Shown: piece after piece, positions 1,831-5,537 of the stretch
Numbering within the stretch: position 1 is the stretch's first letter
Layout of the letters: the number at the start of each line of letters is the position of its first letter
IMG/VR virus record: IMGVR_UViG_3300029686_000254
Reading direction: 5' to 3' (one strand)
DNA length: 5,537 nt
DNA from: a virus
Taxonomy: Duplodnaviria > Heunggongvirae > Uroviricota > Caudoviricetes
Notes under the pieces: model-generated
The model's database searches: none
Told to the model about the DNA's origin: nothing
What the model saw: the letters and a program-made list of their open reading frames with translations, nothing else
Made by a program: the position numbers and the translations under genes

Positions 1831-1857
1831 AGCCCGCCGGTTCAGGCGGGCTTTTTT
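1831..1857 (+). terminator. Rho-independent terminator downstream of lom
   Basis: AGCCCGCC (1831-1838) pairs with GGCGGGCT (1845-1852) as a perfect 8-bp stem around the loop GGTTCA, followed by a T6 run (1852-1857). Confidence 0.8.
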
Positions 1858-1868
1858 GTGGAGTGGAT

Positions 1869-4241
1869 ATGGCAGCAGTAAAAATCTCAGGTGTGCTGAA
1901 AGATGGTGCGGGAAAACCAATACAGAACTGCACTATTCAACTGAAGGCAAAGCGTAACAGCACCACGGTACTGGTGAACACGGTGGCCTCTGAAAATCCT
2001 GATGAAGCCGGGCGTTACAGCATGGATGTTGAGTATGGCCAGTACAGCGTCACCCTGCTGGTTGAAGGTTTTCCGCCTTCACATGCCGGGACCATTACCG
2101 TCTATGAAGGTTCCAGACCAGGTACGCTGAATGATTTTCTTGGTGCCATGACGGAGGATGATGCCCGTCCGGAGGCACTGCGCCGTTTTGAACTGATGGT
2201 GGAAGAAGCAGCACGCAACGCTGAAGCCGCCTCTCAGAGCGCAGCGGCGGCAAAGAAATCCGAAACTGCAGCGGCATCATCGAAGAACGCGGCGAAAACC
2301 TCAGAAACGAATGCAGCTAACAGCGCACAGGCGGCAGCGACCTCACAGACTGCATCGGCAAACTCCGCGACAGCAGCCAAAAAATCAGAAACCAACGCGA
2401 AAAACAGCGAGACAGCCGCAAAGACGAGCGAAACCAACGCAAAGTCCAGCCAGACGGCAGCGAAGACCAGCGAAACGAATGCCAAAGCCAGTGAAACTGC
2501 GGCAAAAAACAGCCAGGTTGCAGCAGCCCAAAGCGAGAGCGCGGCAGCCGGTTCTGCGACTTCAGCAGCTGGATCAGCAACTGCTGCGGCTAACAGCCAG
2601 AAAGCTGCGAAGACGAGTGAAACTAACGCAAAGTCCAGCCAGACGGCAGCGAAGACCAGCGAAACGAATGCCAAAGCCAGCGAAACTGCGGCGAAAAACA
2701 GCCAGGATGCAGCAGCCCAAAGCGAGAGTGCCGCAGCTGGTTCTGCAAGTGCGGCGGCTTCTTCTGCCACTGCATCAGCCAACAGTCAAAAAGCAGCAAA
2801 AACCAGTGAAACCAATGCAAAGACAAGCGAGACTGCGGCGACTAACTCGGCGAAAGCATCCGCTGCAAGCCAGATGGCTGCAAAAGCAAGTGAAGACGCA
2901 GCCAGAGAGTATGCAAGCCAGGCAGCAGAGCCGTATAAATATGTCTTACAGCCACTGCCTGATGTGTGGATACCGTTTAATGACTCGATGGATATGATTA
3001 CAGGATTTGGCCCGGGATATAAAAAAATAACAGTGCGCGATGATGTGGTCACTATACCATCCGACAAAATTGTCCCGTTTTCCCGCGCGAGTTCCGCGAC
3101 CTATATCAATAAGTCCGGCGCTCTTACCATTGCAGAAATTAATGAGCCACGTTTTGAAAAAGAAGGGCTGTTAATTGAAGGGCAGAGAACTAACTATCTA
3201 AAAAATTCTAATACACCGGAATTGTGGTACTACCACAGTTTACTGGCGAAAGAGTATGGGGTTGATAATTACGGTTTTAATTATGCAACCGTCACCGTGA
3301 CAGACAGCCTTGTAGGCACAACCAGTAGTTATCAGATTCATAGTGTAACTGGAGAGAACAGGTTTTCTCTGTCCATCGGTGAAACCTGCACTTTTTCTGC
3401 CCGCTTTCGTGGAGTTAATTCACGTTGTCGCGTCCATATATCTCTTGTTATTGGCGAAAATGTTAAAACATCTGTTGATGTATGTCTGGAGCCAGATACA
3501 GGTGAGGTTAAGGCGTACGGTAATAAGGCGCTGGTGACATTCAGAACGGAAAAACAGGGGGACTGGTGTTACTTTGAAACAACATATACCGCCGCAGAGA
3601 ATATTGACGAAGTGGTATGCGGTTTTTTTATAACCAATCCTGAAGATGGTGGTTTTTCTTCTGATTCGTCATTAACAATGACTACGCCGCAAATTGAAAA
3701 AGGGTCATGCGCTTCATCGTTTATTATTTCCGGAAACACACCAACCACGCGCGCCAGTGATATGGTTATTTTTTCAACCAAAAATAACATAAGTTCTGTC
3801 CCTTTAAGCTGTCTTGTTGAAATACATAAAAATTGGGACTCTACGCCAAATCAGGCCCCACGAATTTTAACCACTATTGGCGTGGCGACTAATGATGAAC
3901 AACTGGTATTGGCTTTCAGGACGCCTACAAGTCCGGATGTAGAACCTTTACCTTATGTTCAGTTTGGAGTGAGATCTGCATATCTTAGTCCATCTGTGAA
4001 GGCCGGGCGCAAAATGATTGCTGGTTTTGTCTGTAATAGCTCGACTGAATTTCGTTGCTGTTGTAATGGTTACCTGTCACCTGTTCAGACTTCGTCATGG
4101 AAGAATACCGGAGCTGCACATGAAATACGTATTGGGGGAACTTCTGCTGGAGGAGAACGTCACTTGTTTGGTCACGTTCGTAACCTGAGAATATGGCATA
4201 AAGAATTAACTGATGCGCAAATGGGGGAGAGTATTAAATGA
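1869..4241 (+). CDS. stf: Side tail fibre protein (lambda Stf-like N-terminus, Ala/Ser/Thr-rich repetitive shaft, divergent C-terminal receptor-binding domain)
   Basis: Long ORF ending at TGA 4239-4241. The ORF track starts at GTG 1863, but ATG 1869 is preferred: it gives MAAVKISGVLKDG..., matching the lambda Stf N-terminus (MAVKISGVLKDG...), and GGAG at 1860-1863 sits 5 nt upstream. The first ~110 aa (…RYSMDVEYGQYSVTLLVEGFPPSHAGTITVYEGSRPGTLNDFLGAMTEDDARPEALRRFELMVEEAARNA) are lambda Stf-like. Residues ~120-350 are repetitive AAKTSETNAK-type sequence. The C-terminal ~430 aa are AT-rich and end ...ERHLFGHVRNLRIWHKELTDAQMGESIK, which resembles the end of a concanavalin-A-like/LamG-type jelly-roll domain. 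Confidence 0.9.
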   Translation: MAAVKISGVLKDGAGKPIQNCTIQLKAKRNSTTVLVNTVASENPDEAGRYSMDVEYGQYSVTLLVEGFPPSHAGTITVYEGSRPGTLNDFLGAMTEDDARPEALRRFELMVEEAARNAEAASQSAAAAKKSETAAASSKNAAKTSETNAANSAQAAATSQTASANSATAAKKSETNAKNSETAAKTSETNAKSSQTAAKTSETNAKASETAAKNSQVAAAQSESAAAGSATSAAGSATAAANSQKAAKTSETNAKSSQTAAKTSETNAKASETAAKNSQDAAAQSESAAAGSASAAASSATASANSQKAAKTSETNAKTSETAATNSAKASAASQMAAKASEDAAREYASQAAEPYKYVLQPLPDVWIPFNDSMDMITGFGPGYKKITVRDDVVTIPSDKIVPFSRASSATYINKSGALTIAEINEPRFEKEGLLIEGQRTNYLKNSNTPELWYYHSLLAKEYGVDNYGFNYATVTVTDSLVGTTSSYQIHSVTGENRFSLSIGETCTFSARFRGVNSRCRVHISLVIGENVKTSVDVCLEPDTGEVKAYGNKALVTFRTEKQGDWCYFETTYTAAENIDEVVCGFFITNPEDGGFSSDSSLTMTTPQIEKGSCASSFIISGNTPTTRASDMVIFSTKNNISSVPLSCLVEIHKNWDSTPNQAPRILTTIGVATNDEQLVLAFRTPTSPDVEPLPYVQFGVRSAYLSPSVKAGRKMIAGFVCNSSTEFRCCCNGYLSPVQTSSWKNTGAAHEIRIGGTSAGGERHLFGHVRNLRIWHKELTDAQMGESIK
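2215..2900 (+). repeat. GC-rich low-complexity coding region of stf made of degenerate 42-nt (14-aa) units of the form AAK(T/K/N)SETNAK(S/A/N)S(E/Q)T
   Basis: Repeated peptide units are visible in the translation: AAKKSETNAKNSET, AAKTSETNAKSSQT, AAKTSETNAKASET, AAKTSETNAKTSET. This region explains the spurious overlapping ORFs on both strands. Confidence 0.85.
2421..2798 (+). repeat. Tandem direct duplication, 2 x 189 nt (63 aa), in frame inside stf
   Basis: Copy 1 begins aagacgagcgaaaccaacgcaaagtccagccagacggcagcg... at 2421. Copy 2 begins aagacgagtgaaactaacgcaaagtccagccagacggcagcg... at 2610. The first ~97 nt differ at about 4 positions by eye; the rest of each unit is more diverged. A partial third unit follows at about 2799-2850. 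Confidence 0.85.
4223..4230 (+). promoter_or_regulatory. Shine-Dalgarno sequence for the 93-aa ORF, embedded in the 3' end of stf
   Basis: GGGGGAGA lies 7 nt upstream of ATG 4238. That ATG overlaps the stf stop codon (ATGA at 4238-4241). Confidence 0.55.
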
Positions 4242-4519
4242 AAGATTTAACACTCAAATTTGCAGACAGGGCCGACTTTTCGGCCTTTATGGATAGCACG
4301 GGCTATTATGATGACGAGTCGATGCAGGATGATATTCTTATTGACGTGATAGGTAACGTGTACAAAGAAACCGGAGAACTGACTGAAGATGGCGAACCGG
4401 TATGTGTTAAGGAAGACGGATATTTTGTAAACGTGCGCATCATTAATGATGCAAAAAAATCGTCAATATTCGATGAATACGCGGTTGTTGTTGAACATCA
4501 ACTTCGTGGCTGGATGTGA
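4238..4519 (+). CDS. Hypothetical small acidic protein (93 aa), translationally coupled to stf; possible tail-fibre accessory or chaperone, or anti-defence protein
   Basis: The start codon overlaps the stf stop (ATGA), with an SD-like GGGGGAGA upstream. By my count there are about 21 Asp+Glu against about 9 Lys+Arg, giving a net charge near -12. I recognise no family and it is not Tfa-like. Confidence 0.6.
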   Translation: MKDLTLKFADRADFSAFMDSTGYYDDESMQDDILIDVIGNVYKETGELTEDGEPVCVKEDGYFVNVRIINDAKKSSIFDEYAVVVEHQLRGWM

Positions 4520-4528
4520 GGCAGAAAA

Positions 4529-5233
4529 ATGGCTACATCGACAGTAATTCCTGGAGACATCACCACGCTGAAGGGAGATGTCAGTAAGGCAAAGGAAGAT
4601 ATTTCCTCAATTAACGGTAAAGTATCAACGCTTCAGACTGATATGACCAGTGCAAAGCAGGATATCAGCACCAGATACACAAAAACTGAAGTTGATAATA
4701 AGCTGAAAAACAAAGTGGAAGTGAACGATCTGGAAAGCGGTCGTTATGGCGGAGATTTTTATCCACTGACAGGTCGTGAAGCGTTTTATTTATGGGGATT
4801 GGGCACGACTACAGCGGCGGCAAACCTTTATCTTAATCCTGACCCTGCAATTTCGTCTGTACTGCGGTCAACATCGTCTATCCGCTATAAAGATTCAGTA
4901 GAGACGATAGATTCAGAGCACGCCGATCTCATTTTCAAGCTGCGCCCTGTATGGTACAGATCGCAATGCGAAAATGACAGGCGTGAATGGGGATTCTACG
5001 GATTGATTGCCGAGGAAGTAGGAGAAATTGCTCCTCAGTTTGTACACTGGCGACCAGCTAACGAAGATGATGCTCCTGAAGCTATTTCCAGCAATGGCCT
5101 TGTTGCCGAAGGTGTAATGTACGAACGTCTGGTTGTTCCACTTATTCACCATATCCAGAAACTGACTGAAAGAGTTGATGAACTTGAGTCAGAATTGAAG
5201 TTGTTATCAACTTCCCGAAGCGATATCGGATAA
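4529..5233 (+). CDS. Tail-fibre-like protein with N-terminal fibrous repeat region and C-terminal intramolecular chaperone / autoproteolytic domain (Peptidase S74-like)
   Basis: 234-aa ORF with GAGG 7 nt upstream of the ATG. Residues ~8-70 show roughly 11-residue repeats (GDVSKAKEDIS / SINGKVSTLQT / DMTSAKQDIST), consistent with a coiled-coil or fibre region. Residues 116-121 (SSIRYK) fit the S-D-x-R-x-K serine-lysine dyad motif of the endosialidase/T5 pb1-type chaperone domain. The downstream sequence (LIFKLRPVWYR ... WGFYGLIAEEVGEIAPQFV ... YERLVVPLIHHIQKLTERVDELESELKLL) follows that domain's pattern, including the terminal helix. Confidence 0.8.
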   Translation: MATSTVIPGDITTLKGDVSKAKEDISSINGKVSTLQTDMTSAKQDISTRYTKTEVDNKLKNKVEVNDLESGRYGGDFYPLTGREAFYLWGLGTTTAAANLYLNPDPAISSVLRSTSSIRYKDSVETIDSEHADLIFKLRPVWYRSQCENDRREWGFYGLIAEEVGEIAPQFVHWRPANEDDAPEAISSNGLVAEGVMYERLVVPLIHHIQKLTERVDELESELKLLSTSRSDIG

Positions 5234-5243: not shown

Positions 5244-5537
5244 ATGGATATAACACCTTTTCTTCATGCGCTTTGTGCTGTGGCTGCGCAGGTACTGATT
5301 GGTCTTTTTACCGGAAACTGGGTTTACGGGGCGATAGCCGGTTGTACGTTCTTCATTGCGCGTGAACACACCCAGGCAGAATATCGCTGGATTGAAATGT
5401 TCGGGCATGGCAAGCGAATGAATATGCCGTGGTGGGGCGGTTTTGATCCGCGCGCGTGGGATGTGGCAAGCCTGATGGATTTTGCTGTGCCGGTGGTGGC
5501 GTGTCTGCTGGTCTGGCTGTTGGTTAATCGTGGGTGA
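5244..5537 (+). CDS. Hypothetical small membrane protein (97 aa, two predicted transmembrane helices)
   Basis: Strong SD (AGGAGG) and a complete ORF ending at TGA 5535-5537. Hydrophobic segments FLHALCAVAAQVLIGLFTGNWVYGAIAGCTFFIA and ASLMDFAVPVVACLLVWLLV are separated by a charged, Trp-rich loop (EYRWIEMFGHGKRMNMPWWGGFDPRAWD). GC content is higher than in the two upstream ORFs. Family not recognised. Confidence 0.65.
   Translation: MDITPFLHALCAVAAQVLIGLFTGNWVYGAIAGCTFFIAREHTQAEYRWIEMFGHGKRMNMPWWGGFDPRAWDVASLMDFAVPVVACLLVWLLVNRG

What the first reader, a model, noticed from the sequence alone, without database searches (positions are those of the whole stretch)
4238..4519. Canonical tfa chaperone is absent; a translationally coupled, highly acidic 93-aa protein takes its position
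In lambda-type loci, stf is followed by tfa. Here the next gene overlaps the stf stop (ATGA) and encodes a small protein with a net charge near -12 and no Tfa features. Two hypotheses: (a) a novel dedicated chaperone or assembly factor for the lectin-like Stf tip; (b) an acidic DNA-mimic-type anti-defence or host-takeover protein carried as cargo. The tight coupling to stf favours (a), but neither can be settled from sequence.
Basis: inference. Interest (0 to 1): 0.6.

Follow-up and report, generated by a model that had tools for sequence, protein, structure and literature searches.

The report
Small acidic tail-fibre partner protein
A 93-residue acidic protein is encoded directly behind a lectin-tipped phage side tail fibre, and it travels with that fibre tip across many unrelated coliphage groups; it is almost certainly a fibre accessory protein of a family nobody has characterised, not an anti-defence gene.

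Summary
ORF 4238-4519 encodes 93 aa (net charge -12, pI 4.17). Its ATG overlaps the stf stop codon (ATGA), and the window has no Tfa-like sequence. The gene is real and common: PHROG 1361 (unknown function), 181 phage records, and 990 of 5426 complete E. coli genomes. In 106 loci examined, forming 15 sequence clusters, it always lies directly after a fibre gene. These loci cover lambdoid, Drexlerviridae, Dhillonvirus, Nonagvirus, T5-like and rV5-like phages. In each, the fibre's C-terminal ~430 aa is homologous to Stf 353-792. In 100 of 102 measured loci the start overlaps the fibre stop by 1 or 4 nt. rV5 gp41 and the phage nimi fibre are 91% identical up to residue 1049. Only nimi then carries this tip module, and only nimi carries the small gene. 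The small protein stays 91-99% identical while the two hypervariable fibre segments fall to about 25-30%, so it matches the conserved scaffold and not the receptor-binding surface. Its predicted alpha/beta fold resembles no Tfa, gp38, S74 chaperone or DNA mimic. Best reading: a fibre-dedicated assembly or accessory factor (0.5). Main rival: a virion-retained cap or adaptor (0.3). The anti-defence reading is disfavoured. Moderately interesting, and easy to test.

The parts
1863..4241 (+). stf, side tail fibre (792 aa). It has a lambdoid N-terminal attachment domain, an Ala/Ser/Thr-rich repeat shaft and a C-terminal tip module.
   Evidence: PF08400 phage_tail_N at E 3e-67 and phrog_1419 full length. 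A 189-bp x 2.3 tandem repeat lies at 2403-2841.
2919..4241 (+). Fibre tip module (Stf aa 353-792), the part that always co-occurs with the small gene. The scaffold segments aa 353-465, 614-653 and 762-792 are conserved. Two hypervariable segments (aa 466-613 and 654-761) lie between them. The module ends in a ConA-like (Laminin_G_3) domain.
   Evidence: It is homologous at 30-60% identity to the C-termini of fibres in eight phage lineages whose N-termini differ. It is found in 218 phage records. NF048003 matches aa 437-631. Laminin_G_3 matches the last ~65 aa.
4223..4231 (+). Shine-Dalgarno-like GGGGGAGAG inside the last codons of stf. Its GGAG core ends 8 nt upstream of the ORF93 ATG.
   Evidence: Read directly from the sequence. 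GAGG or GGAG motifs occur at the same place in phage 21, ev243, Bas32 and Ioannina.
4238..4241 (+). ATGA overlap of the ORF93 start and the stf stop (translational coupling).
   Evidence: The overlap is conserved as ATGA, GTGA or TAATG in 100 of 102 loci.
4238..4519 (+). ORF93, a small acidic fibre partner protein (PHROG 1361). The predicted compact alpha/beta fold has a conserved, less confident C-terminal P-x-R-x-W tail.
   Evidence: phrog_1361 at E 2e-46. AF2 gives pLDDT 84.5 with order b1-a1-a2-b2-b3-b4-b5-b6, and residues 70-93 score 65-76. Nearly invariant residues are F8, D36, I38, G39, G61, V64, N65, R90 and W92. dN/dS is 0.33.
4529..5233 (+). A 234-aa mini 'distal fibre'. It has the N-terminal docking motif MATSTVIPGDITTLK, a coiled coil and a Peptidase_S74 intramolecular chaperone domain starting near aa 116. 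It is an optional third gene of the cassette.
   Evidence: PF13884 at 28 bits, above the cut-off of 22. It matches the C-terminal end of phrog_3299. It starts 9 nt after ORF93, as does the downstream gene in 86 of 102 loci. The N-terminal motif is shared with 166-586-aa distal fibres of Nonagvirus, Drexlerviridae and T5-like phages.
5244..5537 (+). A 97-aa predicted membrane protein (phrog_1443) that closes the cassette in lambdoid prophages.
   Evidence: phrog_1443 at E 7e-59. It is 94-95% identical to the gene that directly follows the small gene in phage 21 and ev243. In phage 21 it is annotated as a 2-TMD membrane protein.
1831..1852 (+). Terminator-like hairpin after lom. No further terminator or promoter match lies between here and the window end, so stf, ORF93, the 234-aa gene and the 97-aa gene read as one late transcription unit.
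   Evidence: consensus scan only.

Best explanation
ORF93 is the dedicated accessory protein of one widespread type of lateral or side tail-fibre tip: a trimeric shaft end carrying a GTA-spike-like domain and a ConA/Laminin-G-like lectin domain. It is made from the same late mRNA, by translation coupled to the end of stf, so its amount tracks the amount of fibre. The most likely mechanism is that the acidic alpha/beta protein binds the conserved scaffold of the nascent fibre C-terminus. That scaffold consists of the last lectin-core strands and the conserved shaft segments, which are mildly basic. Binding probably uses the invariant C-terminal P-x-R-x-W tail and the GYFVN strand. It would help the three chains register and fold, or keep the tip soluble and competent for assembly, in the position that Tfa occupies in lambda. 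The protein does not determine receptor specificity.

Shown: the obligate genetic linkage, the coupling, cassette-like inheritance, the lack of covariation with the hypervariable segments, acidity across the whole family, and a fold unlike known chaperones. Inferred: physical binding to the fibre, and an assembly or chaperone activity.
For: 1. Position. All 102 fetched loci, plus 4 extra phages, have the gene directly after a fibre whose C-terminus is homologous to Stf 353-792. The small proteins form 15 clusters at 60% identity. Six or more phage groups are covered, including virulent ones.

2. Coupling. The start and stop overlap by 1 or 4 nt in 100 of 102 loci.

3. Cassette behaviour. rV5 gp41 and the nimi fibre are 91% identical over aa 1-1049 and then diverge. 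Only nimi has the tip module, and only nimi has the small gene.

4. Apparent exceptions. Four phages had the tip module but no tblastn hit for the small gene. All four turned out to encode a divergent homologue: AKFV33, KarlJaspers, PhiR11_1 and Aeromonas AhP_Mru1.

5. Independence from a distal fibre. The gene is retained where no distal fibre follows: phage 21, ev243, nimi, L095 and L097/98.

6. Selection and composition. The gene is under purifying selection. The protein is acidic in all 59 distinct members, with pI 4.05-4.81. Fibre segments 654-792 are basic, with pI about 8.7-8.8.

7. Transcription. No terminator or promoter match lies between stf and the downstream genes.

8. Precedent. 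Small cognate chaperone genes downstream of fibre genes, moving with the fibre between unrelated phages, are established for other families (PMC10579305; bioRxiv 10.64898/2026.06.04.730250).
Against: No experiment or complex model shows binding or chaperone activity.

AlphaFold-Multimer in Humolli et al. 2025 modelled the homologous Bas32 Gp22 tip (339-796) as a confident trimer without the small protein (pLDDT 95.4). In-silico folding therefore does not require it, though that is weak evidence either way.

ConA-like domains usually fold on their own.

The protein does not covary with the variable receptor-binding parts, unlike the C-terminal half of Tfa-type chaperones.

Gene order (proximal fibre, small gene, distal fibre) and the conserved N-terminal motif of distal fibres fit a structural joint equally well.
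Confidence: 0.5

Rival explanations
1. ORF93 is a structural part of the mature fibre. It would be an acidic cap or joint sitting on the conserved C-terminal end of the proximal fibre. It would either mask or stabilise the tip, or form the socket into which interchangeable distal fibres plug through their conserved N-terminal M-[AV]-T-x-T-V-I-P-x-D-I-x-x-L-K motif. This would be analogous to the T4 gp35/gp36 hinge proteins.
For: Gene order is proximal fibre, small gene, distal fibre, with a 9-nt spacer in 86 of 102 loci. Distal fibres of lambdoid, Nonagvirus, Drexlerviridae and T5-like phages share the N-terminal motif although their bodies differ (166-586 aa). The small protein and the last 30 fibre residues are the most conserved elements around the junction. 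Humolli et al. 2025 describe Bas32 Gp24 as a distal fibre attached to proximal fibre Gp22. The gene between them is annotated 'tail fiber protein' in GenBank.
Against: The gene is retained and conserved in at least five lineages with no distal fibre gene behind it. No virion proteomics detects it: the AKFV33 study excised only four bands from a 10% gel. No fibre-small-protein fusion appears among 49 representative clusters. Bas87 AnnaHegner is described with a distal fibre on a proximal fibre and no gene numbered between them.
Confidence: 0.3
2. ORF93 is an acidic DNA-mimic or other anti-defence or host-takeover protein carried as cargo next to stf.
For: Net charge is -12 and pI 4.17. The protein is small. 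No known family matches.
Confidence: 0.04
3. The gene persists mainly by linkage. It would be a conserved flank that serves as a homology arm for swapping the hypervariable fibre segments, with a minor or dispensable protein function such as a regulatory role or a role under special conditions.
For: The small gene, the last 30 fibre codons and aa 353-465 form highly conserved flanks around hypervariable segments. This is the pattern expected at recombination boundaries.
Against: dN/dS is 0.33. The frame, length, acidity and motifs are conserved down to 32% identity and into an Aeromonas phage. These show selection on the protein and not only on the DNA.
Confidence: 0.08

Closest known systems
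Tfa-type tail fibre assembly proteins (lambda Tfa, Mu U/U', P2 G; Pfam PF02413 Caudo_TAP)
   Same: The gene lies directly downstream of the fibre gene, in the same late operon, and moves with the fibre tip by recombination. It occupies the position that tfa has in lambda. A tfa 3' remnant survives just beyond this cassette in the closest genome.
   Different: There is no sequence match to PF02413 in any of 17 divergent members. The protein is half the size (85-110 aa against about 190). The predicted fold is different. It does not covary with the variable receptor-binding part of the fibre.
Intramolecular chaperone domains of fibres and tailspikes (Peptidase_S74: K1F endosialidase, T5 pb1)
   Same: Both serve the C-terminal end of a trimeric fibre. 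An S74 domain is present in the very next gene of this cassette.
   Different: ORF93 is a separate polypeptide with no S74 match. The fibre it follows ends in a complete ConA-like domain and not in an S74 domain.
Cognate fibre chaperones of Alteromonas phages V22 and A5 ('transient chaperone caps', PMC10579305)
   Same: A fibre plus its cognate small downstream gene forms a module shared between morphologically unrelated phage families. Whether it acts as chaperone or cap is likewise unresolved.
   Different: No sequence relation was tested or seen. Those chaperones are reported to resemble intramolecular chaperone domains, which ORF93's model does not.
T4 gp35/gp36 hinge proteins between the proximal (gp34) and distal (gp37) half-fibres
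   Same: The gene order is proximal fibre, small connector, distal fibre. A conserved docking end is present on the distal fibres.
   Different: No homology is known. ORF93 is much smaller. It is retained where no distal fibre exists.
Acidic DNA-mimic anti-restriction proteins (T7 Ocr, ArdA)
   Same: Small size and strongly acidic composition.
   Different: The genomic context is late, structural and fibre-linked. The predicted fold differs, and no such protein appears among the structural matches.

Membership tests
PHROG 1361 (with sister PHROG 18574), phage proteins of unknown function | Full-length match to the family profile | tested here: met
   phrog_1361 at E 2.1e-46, covering residues 1-93 against profile 1-92 of 92. 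Of 17 divergent homologues, 16 match phrog_1361 and 9 match phrog_18574.
Tfa / Caudo_TAP tail fibre assembly proteins (PF02413) | Sequence match to the PF02413 profile | tested here: not met
   No Pfam family at E <= 0.1 for ORF93. No PF02413 hit in 17 family members. No tblastn match of Tfa fragments anywhere in the window.
Tfa / Caudo_TAP tail fibre assembly proteins (PF02413) | Encoded immediately downstream of the fibre gene it serves | tested here: met
   The ATGA overlap with stf. Conserved in 100 of 102 loci.
Tfa / Caudo_TAP tail fibre assembly proteins (PF02413) | Part of the protein covaries with the receptor-binding tip of the fibre | tested here: not met
   The small protein is 91-99% identical while fibre segments 466-613 and 654-761 are about 24-32% identical.
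Tfa / Caudo_TAP tail fibre assembly proteins (PF02413) | Required for fibre folding or assembly, and binds the fibre tip | not testable with these tools
   This needs co-expression or genetics.
Peptidase_S74 intramolecular chaperone (PF13884) | Match to PF13884, and location at the C-terminus of the fibre polypeptide | tested here: not met
   ORF93 has no hit. The hit (28 bits, cut-off 22) belongs to the next gene at 4529-5233.
DNA-mimic anti-restriction proteins (Ocr/ArdA-like) | Strongly acidic surface | tested here: met
   Net charge -12 and pI 4.17. The whole family has pI 4.05-4.81. Composition only; surface charge was not mapped.
DNA-mimic anti-restriction proteins (Ocr/ArdA-like) | Structural resemblance to a known DNA mimic | tested here: not met
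DNA-mimic anti-restriction proteins (Ocr/ArdA-like) | Early or independent expression, and occurrence independent of structural genes | tested here: not met
   The gene is always coupled to a fibre gene in the late operon.
Fibre hinge or adaptor proteins (T4 gp35/gp36-like role) | Present only where a distal fibre has to be joined to a proximal fibre | tested here: not met
   The small gene is present without any distal fibre gene in phage 21, ev243, nimi, L095 and L097/98.
Fibre hinge or adaptor proteins (T4 gp35/gp36-like role) | Component of the mature virion | not testable with these tools
   The only proteomic study found for a carrier phage (AKFV33) analysed four large gel bands.

The most novel reading that the evidence does not exclude
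ORF93 founds an unrecognised class of fibre-end protein that stays on the virion. It would be a conserved acidic hub at the end of lectin-tipped proximal fibres, providing a universal socket for interchangeable distal fibres (N-terminal TVIPxDIxxLK plug). In phages without a distal fibre it would cap the end. That would make it the key part of a plug-and-socket system for branched fibres, shared by lambdoid, T1-like, T5-like, Nonagvirus, Dhillonvirus and rV5-like coliphages.
Probability: 0.2. Interest if true: 0.65.

Novelty: new variant of a known kind. Interest (0 to 1): 0.42.

Why it matters
This fibre tip module with its small partner is among the commonest side and lateral fibre designs in coliphages. 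The close allele alone is in 990 of 5426 complete E. coli genomes. It is also in model phages such as phage 21 and several BASEL isolates. Everywhere it is annotated 'hypothetical'.

If the protein is needed for fibre assembly or forms the fibre end, three consequences follow:
- Anyone transplanting these tips into lambda-type or T5-type chassis for host-range engineering must carry the small gene along.
- Structure predictions of these fibres made without it, as in Humolli et al. 2025, may be incomplete.
- A new, Tfa-unrelated family would be added to the short list of fibre accessory proteins.

The conserved flanks around the two hypervariable segments also mark natural exchange points for receptor-binding cassettes.

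Tried and rejected
Sequence-based annotation gave nothing beyond PHROG 1361 and 18574. I tried Pfam, NCBIfam, PADLOC and PDB sequences.

IMG/VR scans with single divergent queries returned only 1-3 loci each. One genome contigs alignment was too diverse to scan. The second found only three loci, two of them from Escherichia species.

I looked for Rosetta-stone fusions. None of the 49 representative clusters is a fibre fusion. Three long proteins had many short repeated matches; I treated them as compositional and did not follow them up.

Literature searches led nowhere:
- The DT57C LtfA/LtfB papers describe a different fibre type, ending in S74.
- BASEL 2021 and 2025 do not analyse the small gene.
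- The Eligo STF-chimera preprint does not mention accessory genes.
- The AKFV33 proteomics covered four bands only.
- rV5, which has a published proteome, lacks the cassette.
- The CRISPRi-ART paper text shows only single-gene use of EdH4 (major capsid and rII knockdowns) and no EdH4 tail-fibre data.

I considered and rejected the idea that the small protein supplies a missing strand of the lectin domain. The Laminin_G_3 match runs to profile position 149-151 of 151 at the fibre's own C-terminus.
Full report
THE WINDOW. The window is the distal end of the tail operon of a lambdoid E. coli prophage. It holds:
- the C-terminus of J (31-1137);
- lom (1205-1804);
- stf (1863-4241, 792 aa);
- the 93-aa ORF of the finding (4238-4519);
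- a 234-aa ORF (4529-5233);
- a 97-aa ORF (5244-5537).
The closest complete genomes are 96-97% identical over the whole window. In the best one, the cassette is followed by a 40-codon 3' remnant of tfa and then by host genes next to bioA, which is the lambda attachment region.

CHECKING THE OBSERVATION. The ATG at 4238 overlaps the stf TGA (ATGA). The protein has 21 acidic and 9 basic residues, so net charge is -12 and pI is 4.17. Pfam and NCBIfam find nothing in it, and no Tfa-like sequence exists anywhere in the window. A Shine-Dalgarno-like GGGGGAGAG sits at 4223-4231.

The ORF is a real gene. It matches PHROG 1361 over its full length at E 2e-46. Homologues down to 32% identity keep its length and motifs. 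Among 44 distinct alleles the median dN/dS is 0.33.

The 'lectin-like tip' also holds up. Stf 437-631 matches the GTA head-spike-fibre domain at E 5e-18. The last ~65 residues match the C-terminal strands of the ConA-like Laminin_G_3 domain. That match is sub-threshold here but above threshold in divergent homologues. Humolli et al. 2025 (PMC11990801) describe a 'galectin-like domain' on the homologous Bas32 Gp22 fibre.

WHERE THE GENE OCCURS. tblastn finds the small protein in 181 phage records. They include:
- lambdoid phages (phage 21, ev243 and many Lambda_ev isolates);
- Drexlerviridae;
- Dhillonvirus;
- Nonagvirus;
- T5-like Tequintavirus and Epseptimavirus;
- rV5-like Vequintavirus.
In 50 of the 60 listed rows the match overlaps an annotated tail-fibre or tail gene. 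The close allele is in 990 of 5426 complete E. coli genomes, annotated 'hypothetical' beside a fibre gene. The family is narrow. It has only 49 clusters at 50% identity among 1.84 billion representatives. In the one-genome-per-species collection, hits came only from Escherichia species plus one doubtful MAG contig.

LINKAGE TO THE FIBRE. I fetched eight annotated phage loci from different lineages, 80 IMG/VR loci, a few more by divergent queries, and the contigs of the six most divergent homologues.

In all 102 loci the small gene lies directly after a long ORF. In 100 of them its start overlaps that ORF's stop by 1 nt (TAATG) or 4 nt (ATGA or GTGA). In the other two the gap is 10 nt. Eighty of these loci are close relatives, so the independent evidence is 15 clusters at 60% identity. 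Every cluster shows the same arrangement.

The upstream proteins differ in their N-terminal parts. Some have a lambda-type attachment domain, some a T5 LtfA-type, and one is a 1479-aa rV5-type fibre. All end in a ~430-aa module homologous to Stf 353-792 at 30-60% identity. That module occurs in 218 phage records, with the same taxonomic spread as the small gene.

I then looked at four phages that had the module but no tblastn hit for the small protein: AKFV33, KarlJaspers, PhiR11_1 and Aeromonas phage AhP_Mru1. All four have an 88-104-aa ORF in the same place, and each matches the family HMM at 27-116 bits.

The clearest natural experiment is in Vequintavirus. rV5 gp41 and the phage nimi fibre are 91% identical over residues 1-1049 and then diverge. 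Nimi continues with the Stf-like module and the small gene. rV5 has a different C-terminus and no small gene anywhere in the 18 kb examined. The unit of inheritance is therefore 'fibre tip module plus small gene'.

WHAT THE PROTEIN IS MATCHED TO. The tip module has three conserved scaffold segments: aa 353-465, 614-653 and 762-792. Between them lie two hypervariable segments, 466-613 and 654-761. Among loci whose small protein is 91-99% identical to ORF93, the hypervariable segments are only about 24-32% identical to the window's. The scaffold stays at about 50-90%. The small protein therefore does not track receptor-binding alleles. Whatever it touches must be the conserved scaffold. This differs from Tfa-type chaperones.

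Acidity is a family trait: net charge is -4 to -18 and pI 4.05-4.81 in 59 distinct members. The last two fibre segments are mildly basic, with pI about 8.7-8.8. That is compatible with an electrostatic contact but does not prove one.

STRUCTURE. AlphaFold2 with a 20-sequence alignment gives a confident compact alpha/beta model. Mean pLDDT is 84.5, pTM is 0.71, and the order of elements is b1-a1-a2-b2-b3-b4-b5-b6. Confidence is lower (65-76) over residues 70-93, which carry the nearly invariant R90 and W92 of a P-x-R-x-W C-terminal motif. A conserved but less confident tail is what one expects of a segment that orders on a partner; this is an inference.

THE NEIGHBOURS. The gene after ORF93 starts 9 nt downstream in 86 of 102 loci, but it is variable. 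It is:
- 234 aa here;
- 346-351 aa in other prophages and in Nonagvirus ESCO3;
- 166-231 aa in Drexlerviridae;
- 557-586 aa 'T-shaped' distal fibres in T5-like phages;
- absent in phage 21, ev243, nimi, L095 and L097/98.
Where present in lambdoid, Nonagvirus, Drexlerviridae and T5-like phages, these proteins share an N-terminal motif, M-[AV]-T-x-T-V-I-P-x-D-I-x-x-L-K. Those examined end in a Peptidase_S74 intramolecular chaperone.

Humolli et al. 2025 model Bas32 Gp24 as a distal fibre attached to proximal fibre Gp22. Their predictions did not include the small Gp23, and the Gp22 tip was modelled as a confident trimer without it. A conserved 97-aa membrane protein closes the cassette in lambdoid phages. 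No terminator or promoter match separates these genes.

HOW IT MOST LIKELY WORKS. The genetics show a protein whose function is tied to one fibre tip. It is made in step with that fibre and retained whether or not a distal fibre follows. It is under selection as a protein and indifferent to the receptor-binding alleles.

My best reading (0.5) is an assembly or accessory factor that binds the conserved C-terminal scaffold of the nascent fibre. It would aid registration or folding, or keep the end assembly-competent. In that role it functionally replaces Tfa, whose gene survives only as a remnant.

The main rival (0.3) is that it remains on the virion as a cap or joint, possibly the socket for the conserved N-terminal plug of distal fibres. 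Gene order and the conserved plug favour this. Retention in five lineages without a distal fibre argues that joining cannot be its only role.

The DNA-mimic or anti-defence reading (about 0.04) rests on acidity alone. Context, coupling, cassette behaviour and fold all contradict it.

A pure 'conserved recombination arm' reading (about 0.08) is contradicted by protein-level constraint.

COMPARISON WITH WHAT IS KNOWN. In kind, this is the familiar arrangement of a fibre gene followed by its cognate accessory gene. Examples are lambda stf-tfa, Mu S-U, T4 37-38, the Alteromonas V22/A5 fibre-chaperone module (PMC10579305), and the small chaperones behind N4-like side fibres (bioRxiv 10.64898/2026.06.04.730250).

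In family, it belongs to none of them. It fails the sequence test for Tfa and S74, has a different predicted fold, and lacks the tip covariation of Tfa. It is a member of PHROG 1361, for which I found no functional study in the searchable literature. I therefore rate it a new variant of a known kind.

VERDICT. Interest is moderate at 0.42. A gene behind a fibre gene being a fibre accessory is not surprising. However, the family is uncharacterised, very common and perfectly linked, it is present in tractable model phages, and it is relevant to fibre engineering.

Noticed in passing
window 4529-5233: The 234-aa ORF looks like a minimal distal fibre. It has a conserved N-terminal plug (MATSTVIPGDITTLK), a heptad-rich stretch and a Peptidase_S74 chaperone domain starting near aa 116, with no receptor-binding body in between. 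After the usual self-cleavage only a stub of about 115 aa would remain. A homologue in BASEL phage KarlJaspers is annotated 'putative lateral tail fiber chaperone'. Other loci carry 346-586-aa fibres at the same place.
   Followed up: partly
window 5244-5537: A 97-aa predicted two-TMD membrane protein (phrog_1443) ends exactly at the window end. It is 94-95% identical to the gene that directly follows the small gene in phage 21 and ev243. It closes the cassette in most lambdoid loci, at +1006 or +1374 nt from the small-gene start. Its function is unknown; a superinfection-exclusion-type role is a guess only.
   Followed up: partly
window 2403-2841 (also 2388-2476 and 2594-2702): The stf shaft contains a 189-bp unit repeated 2.3 times (84% matches), with nested 42- and 21-bp periodicities. 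These encode the Ala/Ser/Thr/Lys-rich repeats. They also explain the long spurious antisense and out-of-frame ORFs listed there.
   Followed up: partly
window 3258-3701 and 3822-4145 (Stf aa 466-613 and 654-761): Two hypervariable fibre segments (about 24-32% identity) are embedded between scaffold segments that stay at about 50-90% identity in loci whose small gene is above 90% identical. Locus L029 shares 100% of 654-792 with the window but only 24% of 466-613. The two segments therefore seem to be exchanged independently.
   Followed up: partly
L102:11557-11676 (closest E. coli genome, 20 nt beyond the window end): A 40-codon 3' fragment of a Tfa-type tail fibre assembly gene, annotated as a pseudogene, lies just after the 97-aa gene. 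A diguanylate cyclase gene, ybhB and bioA follow. This suggests the cassette replaced an ancestral stf-3'/tfa region in a prophage at the lambda attachment site.
   Followed up: partly
L107 (rV5 34199-38017) against L006:1562-6001 (nimi): There is a sharp recombination breakpoint at about residue 1049 of the large Vequintavirus fibre. Upstream the two proteins are 91% identical. Downstream are two unrelated C-termini, and only one of them is accompanied by the small gene.
   Followed up: yes
Phage records MG0656xx ('Campylobacter phage') and OR84xxxx ('Listeria phage'): Several records named as Campylobacter or Listeria phages carry this coliphage fibre cassette. In some the small protein is 100% identical to that of E. 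coli phage nimi. These look like mislabelled or contaminating rV5-like or T5-like coliphage sequences.
   Followed up: no
L103:1454-3808 (AKFV33 ORF137): The AKFV33 fibre homologue was reported at 95.8 kDa on SDS-PAGE (PMC3326045), against 83.1 kDa calculated here. The ~12 kDa excess is close to the mass of the small protein, but it may simply be anomalous gel migration.
   Followed up: no
E. coli complete genomes: 47 of the 1530 places matching ORF93 are on plasmids, and some genomes hold up to five copies. This hints at phage-plasmids or multiple lambdoid prophages carrying the same cassette.
   Followed up: no
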